A program made the position numbers and the translations under genes. A DNA stretch of 64,000 bases from a virus. The stretch is taken from positions 18,660 to 82,659 of the IMG/VR virus record IMGVR_UViG_3300027779_002770. One strand, 5' to 3'. This document shows, one piece after another, positions 35,646 through 45,126 of this stretch; the first letter of the stretch is position 1, and each line of letters opens with the position of its first letter. Under the pieces are notes generated by a model, which was given only the letters and a program-made list of their open reading frames with translations, did no database searches and was not told the DNA's origin.

Positions 35646-35679
35646 ATAGGCAGTTGACGCACCTATAGAAAAATGCGTC
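35646..35679 (+). promoter_or_regulatory. candidate H-type RNA pseudoknot in the 5' leader of the TonB-dependent receptor
   Basis: ATAGG/CCTAT and GACGCA/TGCGTC interleaved helices with A-rich loop AGAAAAA. Confidence 0.45.
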
Positions 35680-35708
35680 TTAAACGTAATAACAAAAGGA
35701 GAACGTTT

Positions 35709-38477
35709 ATGAATAAGCGTAACCTAGTAATATCATTATTAATGATGACAGGATTGTTCGCGCAATCTATTGTTGGAGTTGTTAATAGTGGTACTGAACC
35801 ATTGATTGGAGCAAATGTTGCTGTCGAAGGAACTGACAAAGGTGGTGTAACAGATGAATCTGGTAAATACACTATCGATGTTGGGGCTGAAGGCACATTC
35901 ACATTGACAGCTTCATTCATTGGGTACTCATCTGCAACATTAGATGTTGTGGTGGGTGATATAGTTGGAACACTCAACTTCAATTTAGAAGAAGATGTTC
36001 TAATTATGTCAGCATTAGAAGTCTTGGCTTCTAGAGCTGATGAAAATACACCTGTTGCACACACTACAGTTGGCAAAGCCGAAATGGAAATGCGTCTTGG
36101 ATCTCAAGACCTTCCAATGGCACTTAACATGACGCCAAGTGTGTATGCAACTCAACAAGGCGGCGGCGCAGGTGATGCACGTATCAATGTTCGTGGGTTC
36201 AACCAGAATAACGTAGCTGTTATGATAAATGGTGTTCCGCAAAATGATATGGAGAACGGATGGGTCTACTGGTCTAACTGGGATGGTGTAGCTGATGCTG
36301 CTCATTCTATTCAGATGCAAAGAGGATTAAGTGCAGTTAACTTAGCAACACCCTCAATTGGTGGAACGATGAACATCATTACAGATCCTGCTGCTTATGA
36401 AAAAGGCGGCAAGGTAAAACAAGAAGGTGGTGCAGGTGGTTTTTTAAAGACTACACTTAACTACAATTCTGGTCTTATGATGGGCGACAAGTTAGCTTTA
36501 AGCGGAACAGTCGTGCGCAAGACAGGTGATGGAATCATTGATGGTACTTGGACAGATGCATGGGCATACTATTTTGGTAGTAGCTATGCAATGAATAATG
36601 ATCATCGCTTTGAGTTGTATGCAATAGGTGCACCGCAACGTCATGGACATAACTTATACAAACAGAACATAGCTACATATTCACAAGAATTGGCTGGTGA
36701 TGTTAGTGGCTACGATGTAGCGGCTTTTGCAGATAGTGCAAAATTCGAAACTGAAGCTGGTAGGTTATTCAATCAAAATGTTGCAAATGTCGACGCATCA
36801 TACACTGGAAAACAGTACTACTATATGTACGGTGAAAATACTGTTGACAGACATGATCCCAATTCTCTAAACGAAAGAGAGAATTATTTTCATAAACCGC
36901 TTGTTAACTTAAACCATTTCTGGACAATAAACGATAAGGCACGATTAAGTTCAGTAGCTTATTGGTCCGGCGGATCTGGTGGAGGTACTGGTACTTATGG
37001 AAGCGTTAAACGATTCGTTGCCGCAGGTGCTTCAGATCAAGATTTATCTTGGTACAAGAGCTCTCCGTGGACTTGGGATTGGAATGGCGAAATTGCTGAA
37101 AACTCAGCAAACGTTGATTCAGCCTGGTCAGACACAGAGAACAGATCAACGGGTATTCTTCGTAATAGTATCAATCGTCAAAATACTTACGGCTTGATTT
37201 CTAAACTTAACTATGACATTAGTGATGAGTTTGAAGTTCAAGTTGGTATTGATTGGAGAACTGCTAGTATAGAACACGCACGTGAAGTTCGTGATCTACT
37301 CGGTGGTGACTACTATGTAGATTATGCTGATGACAATACACCTGATGGTAAAGTAGTTAAGTTAGGTGATGAGATCGCTTATCACTATGATACTTCAGTT
37401 GATTGGTTTGGTACATTTGCGCAAGGTAAGTATACCACTGATAAGTTTAATGTGTATGGTATGGGCGGTTTGTCCACAATCGCATACTCTTATGAGGACC
37501 ATTTTGCAGCAGATACTGATTCTCTTGGTGAAACAATCGACAACTATGACGAAGCTGATGCTATCACTACTTTTCAATTGAAAGGTGGCGGTACCTATAA
37601 CTTGGATGATCGTATGTCTGTATTTGCTAATGCTGGATACGTTCAAAAACCACCAATTATGGATAATGTAATTGGCTCCGGGTATGTATCATCAGATCCA
37701 GATAATGAGAAGTTTAAAAGCTTTGAGTTAGGTGGAAAGTACAACAGCGACTTGGTTAGCATTAAGTTGAGCACGTATGCTACACAATGGATTGATAGAA
37801 ACGTTGTTAAAAATGTATCTACTGGACAAGGTGATAGCGGTGATTCAGACATAATTTTCTTACGCGGTGTACAACAAGATCATTCAGGCTTTGAAGTCGA
37901 AAGCAAAATCGCACTTCATGAAATGGTTGATCTAGATCTTGTAATCAGTAAGGGAAAATGGGAATTTGTTGGTGACGCAGATGGTTCGTATAAAGAGCAG
38001 GAGTTTAATGAAGCAGACGAAGTCATTGGTATGACATCAACTGAGTATTCTTATGCACTTAACGGGCTTATGGTTGGCGATCAACCACAAACATCATATG
38101 CCGGCGGATTAACAGTTAAACCAATTAAGGGACTCAACATACAGGGTATTTACAAAATGTATGATGACAACTACGCTGATTGGTCTCCCGATTCTCGTGA
38201 GATTGGTAGTGATGACTACAATGATGCTCCAGTTTGGCAAGCTCCTAAGTATGGAAGATTAGATATTCATGCTTCATACAAGCTGCCAGAAGTTGCTGGG
38301 CTAGATGTAACAGTATCAGCACATATTTTCAATGCACTTGATGAAGTATACATTCAAGATGCAGTTGATAATAGTCAATACAATGGGTTTGGTGATGGAA
38401 ATCACTTGGCTCATAACGCGGAAGTATTTCTTGGGACACCAAGATATGCTAACGTAGGAATTTCAGTTAATTTCTAA
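35709..38477 (+). CDS. TonB-dependent outer-membrane receptor with N-terminal carboxypeptidase-regulatory-like domain
   Basis: Signal peptide, EPLIGANV..GT..G..TD..G.Y, plug motifs INVRGF and V.INGVP.N, C-terminal N..D..Y and PR......SVNF; start at ATG 35709 after AAGGAG. Confidence 0.92.
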   Translation: MNKRNLVISLLMMTGLFAQSIVGVVNSGTEPLIGANVAVEGTDKGGVTDESGKYTIDVGAEGTFTLTASFIGYSSATLDVVVGDIVGTLNFNLEEDVLIMSALEVLASRADENTPVAHTTVGKAEMEMRLGSQDLPMALNMTPSVYATQQGGGAGDARINVRGFNQNNVAVMINGVPQNDMENGWVYWSNWDGVADAAHSIQMQRGLSAVNLATPSIGGTMNIITDPAAYEKGGKVKQEGGAGGFLKTTLNYNSGLMMGDKLALSGTVVRKTGDGIIDGTWTDAWAYYFGSSYAMNNDHRFELYAIGAPQRHGHNLYKQNIATYSQELAGDVSGYDVAAFADSAKFETEAGRLFNQNVANVDASYTGKQYYYMYGENTVDRHDPNSLNERENYFHKPLVNLNHFWTINDKARLSSVAYWSGGSGGGTGTYGSVKRFVAAGASDQDLSWYKSSPWTWDWNGEIAENSANVDSAWSDTENRSTGILRNSINRQNTYGLISKLNYDISDEFEVQVGIDWRTASIEHAREVRDLLGGDYYVDYADDNTPDGKVVKLGDEIAYHYDTSVDWFGTFAQGKYTTDKFNVYGMGGLSTIAYSYEDHFAADTDSLGETIDNYDEADAITTFQLKGGGTYNLDDRMSVFANAGYVQKPPIMDNVIGSGYVSSDPDNEKFKSFELGGKYNSDLVSIKLSTYATQWIDRNVVKNVSTGQGDSGDSDIIFLRGVQQDHSGFEVESKIALHEMVDLDLVISKGKWEFVGDADGSYKEQEFNEADEVIGMTSTEYSYALNGLMVGDQPQTSYAGGLTVKPIKGLNIQGIYKMYDDNYADWSPDSREIGSDDYNDAPVWQAPKYGRLDIHASYKLPEVAGLDVTVSAHIFNALDEVYIQDAVDNSQYNGFGDGNHLAHNAEVFLGTPRYANVGISVNF

Positions 38478-41844: not shown

Positions 41845-42098
41845 AGTATGTGTTAGTGGATAATCATGACAATATCGTCCACACAGTTAGCTTACCTACT
41901 GAATATACTCAAGAAGAAGCACGATTATATTTTTTAAATTTAAAAAAAATAGATGACAAGTCCTTTGATGAGTTGTGGAAAGTTCATTCTTCAGAAGAAT
42001 GGAAAAATATTCAACATGCTCACCAAAGACCTCCATCATCATCTCCAAACAGGGATTGGTGGAAAGAAGAAGAGCCATGGTTAGATTTAGAAAAATGA
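41841..42098 (+). CDS. hypothetical protein
   Basis: SD GGAGG; ATGA-coupled at both ends. Confidence 0.55.
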   Translation: MKYVLVDNHDNIVHTVSLPTEYTQEEARLYFLNLKKIDDKSFDELWKVHSSEEWKNIQHAHQRPPSSSPNRDWWKEEEPWLDLEK

Positions 42099-42985
42099 TG
42101 AAAACATTTATAAGAAAACTCATATTTTGGTTTTGTATTTGTACAACATTTGTAGATGCTCAAACCTACACAGTAGGTGATATTGTAGATAATTTTGGTG
42201 CAGAGGCATGTGTTAACGGAGAAGGTTACTGGGATTACGATACAGATGGTTTAAACAAAATTGTATGGTTAAACTTATTCACATCATGGTGACCAAGTTG
42301 TCAAGCGGAGGCTCCGTTGTCAGAATTTATTCACCAATCATATCAAGACTTACCAGTAACAGTAATAGCCGCCGGAAGTGATTGGTCAACTTATAGTTGT
42401 GAGGGATGGGCAAATGCATTTGGAATAACGTATCCGATATTGGATGATGATGTTGGTACTATCTATCCCTTGTTTGGAACTGGATACATACCACACAATA
42501 TTGTAATCGATGGAAGCGGTGTAGTTTTATATTCCCAATCAGGTTTTAATCAAGATGCCATTCTTGCTGCAATACAAGAGGGATTATCTTATCTTGAAGT
42601 GGATACTGATAGTGATGGTCTATTAGATGAGTACGATAATTGTCCAGAAGATTACAACCCGAACCAAGATGATATTGATAATGATGGAGATGGAGATGCT
42701 TGTGATCAATGTAATAACTTAATATTTACTGGTGGTAATATTGATGGTAACGAAAGTATAGATATAATAGATGTACTAATGTTAGTAGATGTTATTTTAG
42801 GTGAGAATGAATATATTTGTTCATTCGAGGCGGGTGATATAACACAAGACGGATTTTTAAATGTTATGGATGTTATAGGTTTAATTCAAATAATAATGGG
42901 TAGTACTGAATCTCAAGCGATGATATGGATAGAAAAGAGCTTCGAATACATCCCAATGAACACAATCACTATTGATACACTTTGA
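42095..42985 (+). CDS. secreted thioredoxin-fold (TlpA/AhpC-like) selenoprotein with UxxC, TSP3-like Ca-binding repeats and dockerin-like domain
   Basis: In-frame TGA at 42290 gives FTSW-U-PSCQAE and joins two ORF-track ORFs; YIPHN.VID..G; DTDSDG..D..DNCP...NP.Q.D.D.DG.GDACD; GNIDGN..IDIIDV and GDITQDG.LNVMDV. Confidence 0.85.
42299..42322 (+). promoter_or_regulatory. bacterial SECIS-like hairpin
   Basis: TG-T-CAA-G-CGGA[GGC]TCCG-TTG-T-CA; G-led apical loop 17 nt after the TGA. Confidence 0.6.
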
Positions 42986-43116
42986 ATCATATTGTTACAC
43001 TAATAACACAATGTTACACTATATGTTATACTATAAAATATTTAAAATCAAAAGTTATGTTCAATAATATTGATACTTATAGAGTATTTTAAAATACTTT
43101 ACAAAATCAGCAGGGT

Positions 43117-43132
43117 TTGGCATAGTTTTTTC
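43117..43132 (+). promoter_or_regulatory. sigma54-like -24/-12 promoter upstream of the pilin operon
   Basis: TTGGCATAGTTTTTTC: -24 GG matches, -12 is TC instead of GC; TGTTA-N6-TAACA at 42993-43008. Confidence 0.45.
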
Positions 43133-43177
43133 CTTATATAGTATGTAAACACTAATTAATTCTTAAAGGAGAAGAAA

Positions 43178-43834
43178 ATGTTTAACAATTTAATGAAAAA
43201 AATAAAGAATAACAGAGGTAATTCACTTGCTGAATTCGCTGTTGTTACTGCAATGATGGCTACGATGGCTACTACTGCCGCCCCAAAATTTGGTGCTGTT
43301 GGTGATTCTGCTAAATCTAAAACATCAATTGCTAATCTAGATAAAATCAAGTCTGCAGCTAATAACTTTTATAACGCTGCTGTGTCTGAAGAAGGTCGTG
43401 GAAGATTTCCAGGACAAACTAAGTATGATGTAAAAGTTGGTGGATTTGATTTACCTGCTGAGACTACTACGGATATGGCATTGGAATTGTATTTAGAAAC
43501 TATTCTAAATTCTTATGAAGGATATGAAGCTGACTTAACTGATTTCGTATATGTATTCTCAACTTCAATAACTGATGAAGATGCTCTACAAGGTGATTGG
43601 ATGAGTGTTGATAATGATGGTGCACACCAGATAGATGCTGGATTTGATGAAGATGGTGCTTTAGATTTCAAAGAAAACTTTGGTAACTCAGGTATCTCAT
43701 CTCCGTTTCAGGATGGTGCTTACATCTATCTTGTTATACCAGGAAGTGGTAGTGGTTCAGACGCTCAAGCTCCTTGTATGATTATAGCAGATGCTGAGAA
43801 TCCTGCTGAAATGTACAAAGTATTAACACCTTAA
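43178..43834 (+). CDS. atypical type IV pilin-like protein
   Basis: Basic leader then G|NSLAEFAVV with E5, hydrophobic helix, Pro22, later GRFPG. Confidence 0.75.
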   Translation: MFNNLMKKIKNNRGNSLAEFAVVTAMMATMATTAAPKFGAVGDSAKSKTSIANLDKIKSAANNFYNAAVSEEGRGRFPGQTKYDVKVGGFDLPAETTTDMALELYLETILNSYEGYEADLTDFVYVFSTSITDEDALQGDWMSVDNDGAHQIDAGFDEDGALDFKENFGNSGISSPFQDGAYIYLVIPGSGSGSDAQAPCMIIADAENPAEMYKVLTP

Positions 43835-43849
43835 TTTTGTGAAAGGAGA

Positions 43850-44281
43850 ATGACAATGAGAAATAACAAAGGATTTACCCTTATTGAATTAATAATGGTT
43901 ACAATCATATTAGGTATTCTTGCTGCTGTCGCTATCCCTCGGTACATGACAACAGTTGCTAAAGCCGAATCGGCTGCAGAAAATGCAGTAATAGGTTCTA
44001 TATTGGCTGGTTTAGAAGTCTTTGCTACAGAACAATTGATGGATAATGGTCGAAGATCATGGCCTGATAATCCATTTGACGGTTTGGACACAAAGCCAAA
44101 TGGTTACACTACAGATGCAACTGATGCTAATGTTGACGGGGAGTGGACATTTAATACCACTTCACTAAAAATTACACATCAACGTCTTGATAATTCACGT
44201 GTTGGCTGGGTTTATGCTAAAGGCACACAAACAGGAGATGCTGCTAACGTGGGTACTCTCGGTGCTAGAGCAACTTTGTAG
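43850..44281 (+). CDS. type IV pilin
   Basis: KG|FTLIELIMVTIILGILAAVAIPRY class III signal peptide. Confidence 0.92.
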   Translation: MTMRNNKGFTLIELIMVTIILGILAAVAIPRYMTTVAKAESAAENAVIGSILAGLEVFATEQLMDNGRRSWPDNPFDGLDTKPNGYTTDATDANVDGEWTFNTTSLKITHQRLDNSRVGWVYAKGTQTGDAANVGTLGARATL

Positions 44282-44293
44282 AGGAGACTACTT

Positions 44294-44731
44294 ATGAATA
44301 ACTCTGCTGGATTCACTTTAGCGGAATTAGTCGTAACTATCGTATTGGTGGGGATACTTGCAGCAGCAGCTATCCCCACTTTTAATAATGTGATGGTATC
44401 AACTCAACTCCAAATAAACAAATCAAATATGGAAAGTATAAAGAATGCCTTTATGCGGTATTATTTTGTAACTCAAAATGATCCTCCACCAATACCAGAA
44501 AACCATTTGCTAGATTCAGAATACAAAGATTTAGTTTTACCTGACGGTAGAACACCCGATAATTTATTTAATGGTAAAGCTGGTTTACCTTATAATAGCA
44601 ATGGAGACCCTTATAGTTATTACCTAGAGAACGACACAAATTCCACAGGATTTGTAACACGGACAATAATAATAAAAGATATGAATACAGATAGCCCGTC
44701 ATACGAGGAATATGTAATCGGAGGGATTTAA
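44294..44731 (+). CDS. type IV pilin / pseudopilin
   Basis: AG|FTLAELVVTIVLVGILAAAAIP. Confidence 0.9.
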   Translation: MNNSAGFTLAELVVTIVLVGILAAAAIPTFNNVMVSTQLQINKSNMESIKNAFMRYYFVTQNDPPPIPENHLLDSEYKDLVLPDGRTPDNLFNGKAGLPYNSNGDPYSYYLENDTNSTGFVTRTIIIKDMNTDSPSYEEYVIGGI

Positions 44732-45126
44732 TGAACAGAGGATATACGCTGATCGAAATGGTCGTAGTTATTCTCATAATTGGTATTATGAGTGCAGTAG
44801 CAGTACCGAGATACCAAAGAATAATTGAATTAAAAGAATTAGAAGCTGAAACAGAATTTGTACATCAGATGTGGAAAGAATTAGAATTATATGCTGAAGA
44901 ACGATTTGTAGCAACAGGCACAGAGAGCTGGCCGGTAAATCCACTTTCTGTTTTAGGTCGCACAAGAGGTGTCATCGTTACTATGGACTTGGGAATACCC
45001 GATGAAGATAATGAATGGCAATTTGATGGAACTGACTTATTTCATAGGAGAAGGAACAATGAGACTTGGTATTTCAATTACACCCCTAGTAATTTTCATT
45101 TGTCTGAACTTCCAGTTAAGTTTTAG
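44731..45126 (+). CDS. type IV pilin / pseudopilin
   Basis: RG|YTLIEMVVVILIIGIMSAVAVPRY; WP.NP and W.F shared with the 43850 pilin. Confidence 0.9.
   Translation: MNRGYTLIEMVVVILIIGIMSAVAVPRYQRIIELKELEAETEFVHQMWKELELYAEERFVATGTESWPVNPLSVLGRTRGVIVTMDLGIPDEDNEWQFDGTDLFHRRRNNETWYFNYTPSNFHLSELPVKF

What the first reader, a model, noticed from the sequence alone, without database searches (positions are those of the whole stretch)
42095..42985. Phage-encoded selenoprotein hidden as two split ORFs
Seen: ORF-track ORFs 41975-42292 and 42317-42985 are in the same frame, separated only by TGA 42290-42292. Read-through gives FTSW-U-PS-C-QAE, putting the TGA at the first Cys of a thioredoxin W-C-x-x-C site. 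A hairpin with a G-led apical loop begins its loop 17 nt downstream (42299-42322), matching bacterial SECIS geometry. The 296-aa product has a signal peptide, redoxin fold, TSP3-like Asp repeats and a dockerin-like duplication. TGA is an ordinary stop elsewhere in the window. Known: UxxC redoxins occur in marine bacteria but are rarely reported in phages. Inference: the phage uses host SelB and tRNA-Sec, so the host is Sec-positive.
Basis: partly seen in the sequence, partly recalled or inferred. Interest (0 to 1): 0.8.

Follow-up and report, generated by a model that had tools for sequence, protein, structure and literature searches.

The report
Phage gene encoding a selenocysteine redoxin
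A large marine phage carries a secreted redox-enzyme gene whose internal "stop" codon is almost certainly read as selenocysteine by its host's machinery. I found no published case of this in a virus of bacteria.

Summary
One 296-codon gene (42095-42985) is split by a single in-frame TGA (42290-42292), giving W-U-P-S-C at the active site of a ResA/TlpA-like thioredoxin-fold domain.

The TGA is not an error or a decaying gene. It is kept in every Sec-type relative I could read as DNA: 16 other IMG/VR viral contigs, 8 metagenome contigs and 12 Fidelibacterota (Marinimicrobia/SAR406) MAG loci, down to 30% protein identity. Protein conservation runs on both sides of it.

Nine Cys-form relatives in that phylum, and ResA/CcmG structures, have Cys at that column.

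A hairpin follows, with a GGC loop starting 17 nt after the UGA. Its core GGAGGCUCC occurs in 30 of 33 Sec forms and 0 of 9 Cys forms, and its stem covaries.

TGA ends 25 of 94 ORFs in the record, so the code is standard.

The record is a myophage (tail sheath, baseplate hub, replication genes). Neither it nor five related phage records carries selA, selB, selD or tRNA-Sec. Fidelibacterota MAGs carry all four, and their selD SECIS has the same 17-nt spacing.

Selenium incorporation and the host assignment are inferred.

The scan has noted phage UxxC glutaredoxin/thioredoxin candidates on other DNA. This one is a different, secreted, multidomain family.

The parts
42095..42985 (+). Complete selenoprotein gene: 296 codons plus the terminal TGA. 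The ATG overlaps the stop of the upstream ORF (ATGA).
   Evidence: homologues
42095..42160 (+). Predicted Sec-type signal peptide, residues 1-22. Cleavage after VDA, before the invariant Q23, is inferred.
   Evidence: Sequence; AF2 helix 2-18; Q23 invariant in A1. No signal-peptide predictor was run.
42236..42553 (+). ResA/TlpA/DsbE-like thioredoxin-fold redoxin domain, residues 48-153.
   Evidence: Pfam; PDB sequence matches; AF2 plus Foldseek, TM 0.82-0.87 normalised to the target
42290..42292 (+). UGA read as selenocysteine (U66), the attacking residue of the U-P-S-C redox motif.
   Evidence: TGA kept in all Sec-type homologous loci read as DNA. Cys sits at this column in the Cys forms and in ResA/CcmG.
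42299..42301 (+). TGT for Cys69, the resolving residue of UxxC.
   Evidence: Invariant column C69
42298..42323 (+). SECIS-like hairpin. Lower stem 42298-42301/42320-42323; upper stem 42304-42309/42313-42318; apical loop GGC 42310-42312, 17 nt after the UGA. The core GGAGGCTCC (42307-42315) is unique in the window.
42593..42715 (+). Thrombospondin type-3-like Ca-binding Asp/Cys repeats, about residues 167-207.
42716..42967 (+). Dockerin-like helical module, about residues 208-291. Support is weak in this copy. The T9SS sorting domain that follows in most relatives is missing here.
42983..42985 (+). Genuine TGA stop of the same gene. I saw no SECIS-like hairpin behind it on reading the sequence; this stretch was not folded.

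Best explanation
Window 42095-42985 is one gene of a large marine myophage. It encodes a signal-peptide-bearing, ResA/TlpA-like thiol-disulfide oxidoreductase whose attacking active-site residue is selenocysteine (W-U-P-S-C), followed by thrombospondin-type-3 Ca-binding repeats and a dockerin-like module.

Proposed mechanism:
1. During infection the host's SelB, loaded with Sec-tRNA(Sec), binds the hairpin at 42298-42323. Its GGC loop lies 17 nt after the UGA.
2. SelB delivers Sec at UGA 42290-42292, so the ribosome does not terminate.
3. The same gene's terminal TGA, behind which I saw no such hairpin, stops translation.
4. The product is exported by the Sec translocon. This copy has lost the T9SS sorting domain, so it probably stays in the periplasm or envelope, where it reduces or isomerises disulfides.

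The gene belongs to a selenoprotein family that is widespread and multi-copy in Fidelibacterota (Marinimicrobia/SAR406). The family has moved between those bacteria and their phages more than once.

Shown here: TGA conservation, Cys/Sec pairing, the covarying Sec-specific hairpin, the fold, the phage context, and host-lineage Sec machinery.

Inferred: actual Se incorporation, host identity, the protein's location, and the benefit to the phage. The neighbouring outer-membrane receptor and pilin genes suggest envelope remodelling or redox maintenance.
For: TGA at the same column in 16 other viral contigs, 8 metagenome contigs including three paralogues at about 30% identity, and 12 Fidelibacterota MAG loci. 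In a survey of 201 genomes of that phylum, 72 have a match, most top hits carry '1 TGA', and there are up to 4 copies per genome.

Invariant residues lie on both sides of the TGA.

Cys forms with the same architecture exist: P0166, P0176, P0184, P0220, and L205 plus 8 more read as DNA. U66 aligns to the first Cys of WCxxC in ResA 4nmu, 3kcm and CcmG 2b1k.

The AF2 model (pLDDT 79.6) places U66 just before helix 67-82. Foldseek matches DsbE/ResA/CcmG at about 1e-11, TM 0.82-0.87 normalised to the target.

Hairpin on 30 sequences: 86.3% of cells are paired against 35-49% when partners are slid. There are 23 double-sided changes against 7.8 +/- 2.2 in shuffles, and no shuffle of 500 reached the observed covariation score. 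RNAalifold finds the same helix.

GGAGGCUCC fixes the wobble positions of GAG-GCU-CCG in a 34% GC genome. It is present in 30 of 33 Sec forms and 0 of 9 Cys forms, although both keep the residues E-A-P.

Host-lineage MAGs have adjacent selA and selB, a selD that itself contains a TGA, and tRNA-Sec at 63.9 bits in G002 (in G001 no tRNA-Sec reached the cut-off). Their selD SECIS also has 17 nt between the UGA and a 3-nt loop.

The record is a phage: tail sheath (1.3e-68), baseplate hub, UvsX-like recombinase, DnaB-like helicase, ribonucleotide reductase, DNA polymerase and ligase.

The code is standard: TGA ends 25 of 94 ORFs.
Against: No experimental or read-level data are available, and selenium incorporation is not shown.

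The single-sequence fold is only moderately better than shuffles (z = -2.16). The lower stems of the window's own minimum-energy fold are not conserved.

Three Sec-type sequences (L013, L107, L108) have different hairpins at the site.

The phage record is only about 41% complete, so absence of phage-borne sel genes or tRNA-Sec is not proven.

The host assignment rests on gene similarity and phylogeny, not on CRISPR spacers or co-occurrence. Some MAG contigs could be mis-binned phage DNA, although the flanks of L017 and L018 look cellular.

The physiological substrate is unknown.
Confidence: 0.88

Rival explanations
1. The TGA is read through or reassigned as something other than Sec. It could be Trp under code 4, Gly under code 25, a phage suppressor tRNA, or near-cognate Cys/Trp insertion.
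For: 33 database homologues are printed with W at this column. Phages with recoded stop codons are known (my own knowledge).
Against: The W calls come from gene callers using code 4. P0018 aligns to L007 past that gene's own TGA stop, several proteins carry W-led tails after the normal ...LLK end, and the nearest DNA loci (up to 93% identical) have TGA.

TGA ends 25 of 94 ORFs in this record, and only one ORF pair is split by TGA.

No suppressor tRNA is present; only tRNA-Ala and tRNA-Gly were found.

The alternative residue in relatives is Cys, not Trp, at a catalytic CxxC position.

A Sec-form-specific covarying hairpin has no role under plain reassignment.
Confidence: 0.05
2. The gene is not really phage-encoded. 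The contig would be a chimera, or a cellular island wrongly classed as viral, so this is simply a Marinimicrobia selenoprotein.
For: The family is abundant in Fidelibacterota genomes. The neighbouring genes are also host-like: an outer-membrane receptor with 58-65% identity to that phylum and pilins. The record is a 41%-complete fragment.
Against: Phage genes lie on both sides on the same strand: tail sheath, baseplate hub and replication genes upstream, ligase and methyltransferase downstream. GC content is mostly about 0.33-0.37 across the window, rising to about 0.38-0.43 near 36-38 kb and 52-62 kb.

The gene is only 41-56% identical to the MAG copies, so it is not a recent assembly graft.

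Sixteen other IMG/VR contigs carry it. They share other neighbours with this window (pilin cassette, orf40943, orf39459), and one of them (131 kb) has a tail sheath 54% identical to this one.
Confidence: 0.04
3. The gene is broken (a nonsense mutation), or it is two separate genes: a short secreted peptide plus a TTG-started 222-aa protein.
For: Standard gene callers output exactly that. 79 truncated database entries start just after the TGA.
Against: The TGA is conserved across sequences as divergent as 30% identity, with purifying conservation on both sides.

The split would cut a thioredoxin fold between strand beta1 and the active-site helix, and would leave the catalytic half without a signal peptide.

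The truncated proteins start at inconsistent internal Met/Leu codons.
Confidence: 0.02

Closest known systems
Bacterial UxxC thioredoxin-fold selenoproteins: the 'Trx-like', 'Prx-like' and thiol:disulfide-oxidoreductase-like families catalogued from marine metagenomes (e.g. PMC9402790 and the GOS selenoproteome work it cites)
   Same: Sec replaces the first Cys of CxxC in a thioredoxin fold. There are Cys-form homologues. A bacterial-type SECIS hairpin lies inside the coding region just after the UGA. The setting is marine, and decoding depends on SelA/SelB/SelD/tRNA-Sec.
   Different: This copy sits in a phage genome. Its architecture is signal peptide, redoxin, TSP3 repeats, dockerin-like module, with or without a T9SS sorting domain. 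No NCBIfam selenoprotein model covers its redoxin part. PMC9402790 states that families other than a few metalloproteins had few or no viral sequences in GOS.
ResA / CcmG(DsbE) / TlpA extracytoplasmic thiol-disulfide oxidoreductases (PDB 4nmu, 1su9, 2b1k, 3gl3)
   Same: The fold matches (TM 0.82-0.87 normalised to the target). The W-C-x-x-C motif position and the cis-Pro loop (GYIPHN against GPLPTS) align. Both are exported.
   Different: Sec replaces Cys. The protein has extra C-terminal TSP3 and dockerin-like modules. It is a secreted form with a signal peptide rather than a membrane-anchored one. It scores far below the ResA and DsbE NCBIfam cut-offs (50 against 170; 31 against 123), so it is not an orthologue and has no shown link to cytochrome c maturation.
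NCBIfam NF045500, Omp28-related selenoprotein
   Same: It shares the C-terminal TSP3 plus dockerin-like module (E 6.1e-28; residues 153-268 against profile positions 257-376) and is also a selenoprotein.
   Different: Only the C-terminal module matches. The score of 98 bits is below the cut-off of 200, and the N-terminal catalytic domain is a different fold family.
Virus-encoded selenoproteins of eukaryotic viruses (poxvirus glutathione-peroxidase homologues; review PMC8310308) and tRNA-Sec genes reported in huge phages (PMC10747093)
   Same: A virus depends on, or contributes to, Sec decoding.
   Different: The poxvirus cases use eukaryotic 3'-UTR SECIS elements (my own knowledge). The huge-phage paper reports tRNA-Sec genes and only speculates about Sec proteins. 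Here a phage selenoprotein gene with a bacterial in-ORF SECIS is identified, with no phage tRNA-Sec found.
Phage UxxC glutaredoxin/NrdH/thioredoxin candidates noted earlier in this scan on other DNA (e1-6061176, e1-3445121, e1-6061186, e1-6055843, e1-5985503)
   Same: A phage-borne thioredoxin-fold gene with UGA at the catalytic Cys, followed by a hairpin, read with host machinery.
   Different: Those are small cytoplasmic redoxins, mostly next to ribonucleotide reductase. This one is a 296-aa exported multidomain protein, drawn from a Marinimicrobia T9SS-cargo family and sitting in a cell-envelope gene block.

Membership tests
Bacterial selenoprotein gene (SelB/SECIS-dependent UGA decoding) | In-frame UGA conserved among orthologues, with protein conservation on both sides | tested here: met
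   TGA at the same column in all Sec-type loci read as DNA: 16 viral, 8 metagenome and 12 MAG. Invariant columns lie on both sides.
Bacterial selenoprotein gene (SelB/SECIS-dependent UGA decoding) | Homologues with Cys at the UGA column | tested here: met
   P0166, P0176, P0184, P0220; L205 and L208-L218 read as DNA; the first Cys of WCxxC in ResA/CcmG
Bacterial selenoprotein gene (SelB/SECIS-dependent UGA decoding) | Stem-loop just 3' of the UGA, with the apical loop about 16-37 nt from the UGA and a G among the first two loop bases (bSECISearch-type criteria, recalled from my own knowledge) | tested here: met
   The GGC loop starts 17 nt after the UGA. The stem covaries: 86% of cells paired against 35-49% for slid partners, and no shuffle of 500 reached the observed score. 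The core is present in 30 of 33 Sec forms and 0 of 9 Cys forms. bSECISearch itself was not available.
Bacterial selenoprotein gene (SelB/SECIS-dependent UGA decoding) | selA, selB, selC (tRNA-Sec) and selD available in the translating cell | tested here: inconclusive
   All four are present in Fidelibacterota MAG G002; G001 has selA, selB and selD, but no tRNA-Sec reached the cut-off there. None was found in this phage record or in five related ones. That these MAGs represent the actual host is inferred.
Bacterial selenoprotein gene (SelB/SECIS-dependent UGA decoding) | Selenium shown in the protein (75Se labelling or mass spectrometry) | not testable with these tools
   The host and phage are uncultured, and no proteomic data are held.
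Pfam Redoxin (PF08534) / AhpC-TSA (PF00578): TlpA/ResA-like thioredoxin fold | Score above the Pfam gathering threshold | tested here: met
   AhpC-TSA 36.9 bits (cut-off 26); Redoxin 33.9 bits (cut-off 26.6)
Pfam Redoxin (PF08534) / AhpC-TSA (PF00578): TlpA/ResA-like thioredoxin fold | Thioredoxin fold with the CxxC motif at the N-terminus of helix alpha1, plus the cis-Pro loop | tested here: met
   In the AF2 model U66 directly precedes helix 67-82. Foldseek to DsbE/ResA/CcmG gives TM 0.82-0.87 normalised to the target. Invariant P133 aligns to the Pro in ResA's GPLPTS loop (the cis-Pro, from my own knowledge).
ResA (NF002854) / DsbE-CcmG (TIGR00385) orthologues, cytochrome c maturation | Score above the NCBIfam curated cut-off | tested here: not met
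   50.1 bits against a cut-off of 170; 31.4 against 123. The protein works like these enzymes but is not a member.
NF045500 Omp28-related selenoprotein | Full-length match above the cut-off | tested here: not met
   98.3 bits against a cut-off of 200. Only profile positions 257-376 match, which is the C-terminal module.
T9SS cargo (Por_Secre_tail, PF18962, C-terminal sorting domain) | C-terminal sorting domain present | tested here: not met
   The window copy ends at residue 296 (...YIPMNTITIDTL) with no sorting domain, as do L003/L012 and L015. Thirteen of the 17 viral copies, and the L018 MAG copy (L017 lacks it), keep it and end ...VTLLK.
Dockerin type I (PF00404) | Score above the Pfam gathering threshold | tested here: not met
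   14.7 bits against a cut-off of 22.9, E 0.036, for this copy. PF00404 is precomputed for many homologues, so 'dockerin-like' holds at family level only.
Stop-codon-reassigned genome (code 4 or 25) | TGA frequent inside genes and not used as a stop | tested here: not met
   25 of 94 ORFs end in TGA, and exactly one ORF pair is split by a TGA.

The most novel reading that the evidence does not exclude
A lineage of large (about 190-200 kb) marine myophages that infect the uncultured phylum Fidelibacterota (Marinimicrobia/SAR406) stably carries host-derived selenoprotein genes. These genes have been exchanged repeatedly with the host and can be translated only by borrowing the host's SelB, tRNA-Sec, SelA and SelD. 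This would be a documented selenoprotein family in viruses of bacteria, and it would tie phage gene expression to the host's selenium status.
Probability: 0.8. Interest if true: 0.75.

Novelty: new variant of a known kind. Interest (0 to 1): 0.72.

Why it matters
Selenocysteine decoding in bacteria needs a dedicated factor, a dedicated tRNA and an mRNA hairpin tuned to the host's SelB. A phage gene that relies on all of these has several consequences:

- It is a built-in marker of host range, because the host must be Sec-positive and its SelB must recognise this hairpin.
- It shows that SECIS elements travel with genes across the phage-host boundary.
- It suggests that selenium supply can affect phage fitness in the ocean.
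- It shows a systematic annotation error. Public protein sets hold this family either truncated at the TGA (79 entries among those fetched) or mistranslated with Trp through code 4 (33 entries).
- It gives a sequence-based link between a group of large uncultured myophages and Marinimicrobia/SAR406, an abundant ocean phylum with very few known viruses.

In the papers I could search, I found tRNA-Sec genes reported in huge phages but no phage selenoprotein gene.

Tried and rejected
Tools and searches that did not help:
I could not read the DNA behind individual database proteins, so I used the search for related loci, the genome search and tblastn instead.
- The one exhaustive protein search was swamped by TSP3-repeat proteins, because I submitted the whole protein rather than the redoxin domain. 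It still yielded four Cys-form homologues.
- Rfam has no family matching the hairpin.
- The terminator scan found nothing after the gene, and the promoter-like sites are uninformative.
- Four literature searches found no phage selenoprotein report (one search failed on term syntax).

Readings rejected:
- The conserved 'W' in full-length database homologues looked at first like a real WWPSC motif, with the TGA as a TGG-to-TGA mutation. I rejected this because every DNA locus has TGA, W-led tails follow the normal stop, and P0018 aligns past L007's stop codon.
- The lower stems of the window's own minimum-energy fold (UGGUGA/UCACCA, AAGUU/AAUUU) are not conserved in relatives, so I did not count them as part of the element.
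- Phage-borne Sec machinery was not found in this record or in five related records. The sub-threshold tRNA-Sec hits are tRNA-Tyr and tRNA-Gly.
- A second selenoprotein gene in the 82.6-kb record was not found.
Full report
**1. The observation**

The sequence is as described. ORFs 41975-42292 and 42317-42985 are in one frame, separated only by TGA 42290-42292.

The likely start is ATG 42095, which overlaps the stop of the upstream ORF as ATGA. From there, read-through gives 296 residues containing FTSW-U-PS-C-QAEAP, and the gene ends at a second TGA (42983-42985).

Pfam places AhpC-TSA and Redoxin above their gathering scores on residues 48-153. It gives weak TSP_3 and Dockerin_1 matches further on. 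The TSP3 repeats are backed by thrombospondin-2 matches at 2e-14.

**2. Is it a phage?**

The window is bases 18660-82659 of an 82,659-bp IMG/VR record that CheckV rates 41% complete.

The record encodes the following:
- a tail sheath (phrog_23, 1.3e-68) and a baseplate hub;
- a UvsX-like recombinase and a DnaB-like helicase;
- ribonucleotide reductase, a 1,211-aa DNA polymerase and an ATP-dependent ligase.

Nearly all long ORFs (≥100 aa) lie on one strand, in a window whose GC is mostly about 0.33-0.37, rising to about 0.38-0.43 near 36-38 kb and 52-62 kb. It is a large myophage. The redoxin gene lies between phage genes, not at a contig edge.

**3. Is the TGA meaningful?**

I first saw that full-length database homologues carry W at the TGA column (FTSWWPSC), and that about 80 others begin just after it.

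The W is a gene-caller artefact from translation table 4:
- Several of these proteins carry W-led tails after the normal ...LLK end.
- P0018 aligns to locus L007 beyond that gene's own TGA stop.
- The nearest DNA loci, up to 93% identical, have TGA.

At the DNA level, every Sec-type relative I could fetch has TGA at this codon:
- 16 other viral contigs;
- 8 metagenome contigs, including three paralogues at about 30% identity;
- 12 loci in Fidelibacterota (Marinimicrobia) MAGs.

The motif is SW-U-PSC or TW-U-GPC. Invariant residues flank it on both sides. This rules out a sequencing error, a recent nonsense mutation and pseudogene decay.

TGA is otherwise a normal stop. It ends 25 of 94 ORFs in the record. 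This is the only TGA-split ORF pair, and the only in-frame UxxC on the coding strand. No suppressor tRNA is present.

**4. Sec/Cys pairing and fold**

Cys-form homologues with the same architecture exist (P0166, P0176, P0184, P0220). Nine Cys-form genes were read as DNA from Fidelibacterota genomes; the closest, L205, is FATW-C-VPC at 49% identity.

HMMER alignments to ResA (4nmu, 2.2e-11), 3kcm and CcmG/DsbE (2b1k) put U66 on the first Cys of their W-C-x-x-C motif. They align the invariant GYIPHN loop to ResA's GPLPTS loop, which I take to be the cis-Pro loop (from my own knowledge).

An AlphaFold2 model (mean pLDDT 79.6) folds residues on both sides of the TGA into one thioredoxin-fold domain, with U66 directly before helix 67-82. 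Foldseek matches DsbE, ResA and CcmG at about 1e-11, with TM 0.82-0.87 normalised to the target.

The protein scores far below the NCBIfam cut-offs for ResA and DsbE. It works like those enzymes but is not an orthologue.

**5. The hairpin**

Downstream of the UGA, the nine bases GGAGGCUCC (42307-42315, unique in the window) form G-G-A/U-C-C around a GGC loop. That loop begins 17 nt after the UGA.

In an ungapped alignment of 30 Sec-form sequences:
- A 10-pair helix (window 42298-42301/42320-42323 and 42304-42309/42313-42318) is paired in 86.3% of cells, against 35-49% when the 3' partners are slid.
- There are 23 cells with changes on both sides, against 7.8 +/- 2.2 in shuffles.
- No shuffle of 500 reached the observed covariation score (a smaller set). 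RNAalifold finds the same helix.

The core fixes the wobble bases of GAG-GCU-CCG (E-A-P) in a 34% GC genome.

The decisive control is the Cys forms. They keep the residues E-A-P but encode them with varied codons (GAA-GCC-CCA, GAA-GCA-CCT and so on). None of the nine has the core, against 30 of 33 Sec forms. The nucleotide constraint therefore goes with the TGA, not with the protein.

One Sec form (L013) has a different hairpin, CUGA-AGCACC-UCAG, at the same place.

The single-sequence fold is only moderately unusual (z = -2.16), and its lower stems are not conserved.

**6. Who decodes it?**

This record has no selA, selB, selD or tRNA-Sec. Five related phage records have no selB and no tRNA-Sec; selA and selD were not searched in those five. 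All are fragments.

The two MAGs that hold the closest cellular copies have adjacent selA and selB, and a selD that itself contains a TGA. One of them has a tRNA-Sec at 63.9 bits. Their selD SECIS has 17 nt between the UGA and a 3-nt loop, the same spacing as the phage gene.

**7. Host and evolutionary origin**

The redoxin domain finds matches in 72 of 201 sampled genomes of that phylum. Most top hits contain one TGA, and there are up to four copies per genome.

In a maximum-likelihood tree, viral and MAG copies interleave, and well-supported branches force at least five changes of label. The window's copy sits in a supported clade with three viral copies, two MAG copies and two metagenome copies.

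Two further points fit a Fidelibacterota host:
- A second host-like phage gene, a 934-aa outer-membrane receptor at 35673-38477, is 58-65% identical over its full length to proteins in more than 30 Fidelibacterota genomes. The best matches among 201 Bacteroidota genomes are 45-50%.
- Most viral copies keep a T9SS C-terminal sorting domain.

The host assignment is still an inference.

The window's copy, L003/L012 and L015 lack the sorting domain and share a ...YIPM[NT]TI... tail.

Other viral contigs share neighbours with this window: the pilin cassette in L005, L006, L014 and L099; orf40943 in L008, L010 and L101; orf39459 in L016. One of them (131 kb, 70% complete) has a tail sheath 54% identical to this one.

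**8. Mechanism and function**

Shown: a conserved UGA at the catalytic position, a Sec-specific covarying hairpin at SECIS spacing, and a Sec-competent candidate host lineage.

Inferred:
- Host SelB with Sec-tRNA(Sec) reads UGA66.
- The protein is exported through its signal peptide. Lacking the T9SS domain, it stays in the periplasm or envelope.
- It acts there as a high-reactivity thiol-disulfide reductase or isomerase.

The gene lies in a block with the outer-membrane receptor, a lipoprotein-like ORF and four pilin-like genes. This suggests envelope remodelling or redox upkeep during infection. No substrate is known.

**9. Comparison with what is known**

UxxC thioredoxin-fold selenoproteins are well known in marine bacteria (PMC9402790). 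That paper notes few or no viral sequences for such families in GOS.

tRNA-Sec genes have been reported in huge phages, with only speculation about Sec proteins (PMC10747093). Viruses of Marinimicrobia are known only from single-cell genomes (PMC4611503).

NCBIfam has an 'Omp28-related selenoprotein' model that shares only the C-terminal TSP3/dockerin module.

Earlier notes of this scan report small glutaredoxin- or thioredoxin-like UxxC candidates in other phages. This is a different family, and the comparative evidence here is stronger.

I rate it a new variant of a known kind: a known decoding mechanism and protein class in a setting I could not find reported, namely phage-encoded and exchanged between host and phage.

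**10. Limits**

- There are no raw reads, no proteomics and no bSECISearch run.
- The exhaustive protein search was used inefficiently.

Noticed in passing
window 43178-45126: Four tandem pilin-like genes with prepilin-type N-termini (phrog_3433 'pilin' and related families) lie directly downstream. The same cassette lies next to the selenoprotein gene in other viral contigs: L005, L006, L099 and L014.
   Followed up: partly
window 35673-38477: A phage-borne 934-aa outer-membrane (TonB-dependent-receptor-like) gene. It is 58-65% identical over its full length to proteins in more than 30 Fidelibacterota genomes, but at most 45-50% identical in 201 Bacteroidota genomes. I used it here as a host marker.
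   Followed up: partly
public protein sets (P0005-P0038 etc.): This selenoprotein family is systematically mis-annotated. Among the proteins fetched, 33 entries have Trp at the Sec codon, often with W-led tails past the true stop, because gene callers chose code 4. Another 79 entries are truncated to start after the TGA.
   Followed up: yes
L190 (G001) and L191 (G002), selD genes: The selD of the candidate host MAGs is itself a selenoprotein (HGSG-U-ACK). Its SECIS is UAGGUCC-UGA-GGACCUA, with 17 nt between the UGA and the loop.
   Followed up: partly
L107:2223-2276 and L107:3429-3482: One metagenome contig carries two tandem, distant (about 30% identity) Sec-containing paralogues (SASW-U-GPC and TASW-U-PSC). 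Their downstream hairpins differ from the GGAGGCUCC type.
   Followed up: no
NCBIfam NF045500 against window 42551-42898 (residues 153-268): The TSP3 plus dockerin-like C-terminal module is shared with a different curated selenoprotein family, 'Omp28-related selenoprotein'. This hints at a common surface-anchoring cassette on several Sec proteins.
   Followed up: no
L223:218-620 (record G206, a related viral contig): ARAGORN calls a tmRNA gene (tag EYDYSPMVAVTNDEPTYAYA) next to a tRNA-Gly in a related phage record. It is unverified and could be a false positive.
   Followed up: no
window 42986-43177: The AT-rich intergenic stretch after the gene contains repeated GTTACAC/GTTATAC words and several promoter-like sites ahead of the pilin cassette. 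No intrinsic terminator was found.
   Followed up: no
L017:1114-1680: In the Marinimicrobia MAG, a Redoxin/Thioredoxin-family ORF (Pfam; I did not read its active site) lies about 3.3 kb upstream of the Sec-form gene. L102 likewise has a WATW-C-SPC redoxin near its Sec-form copy.
   Followed up: no
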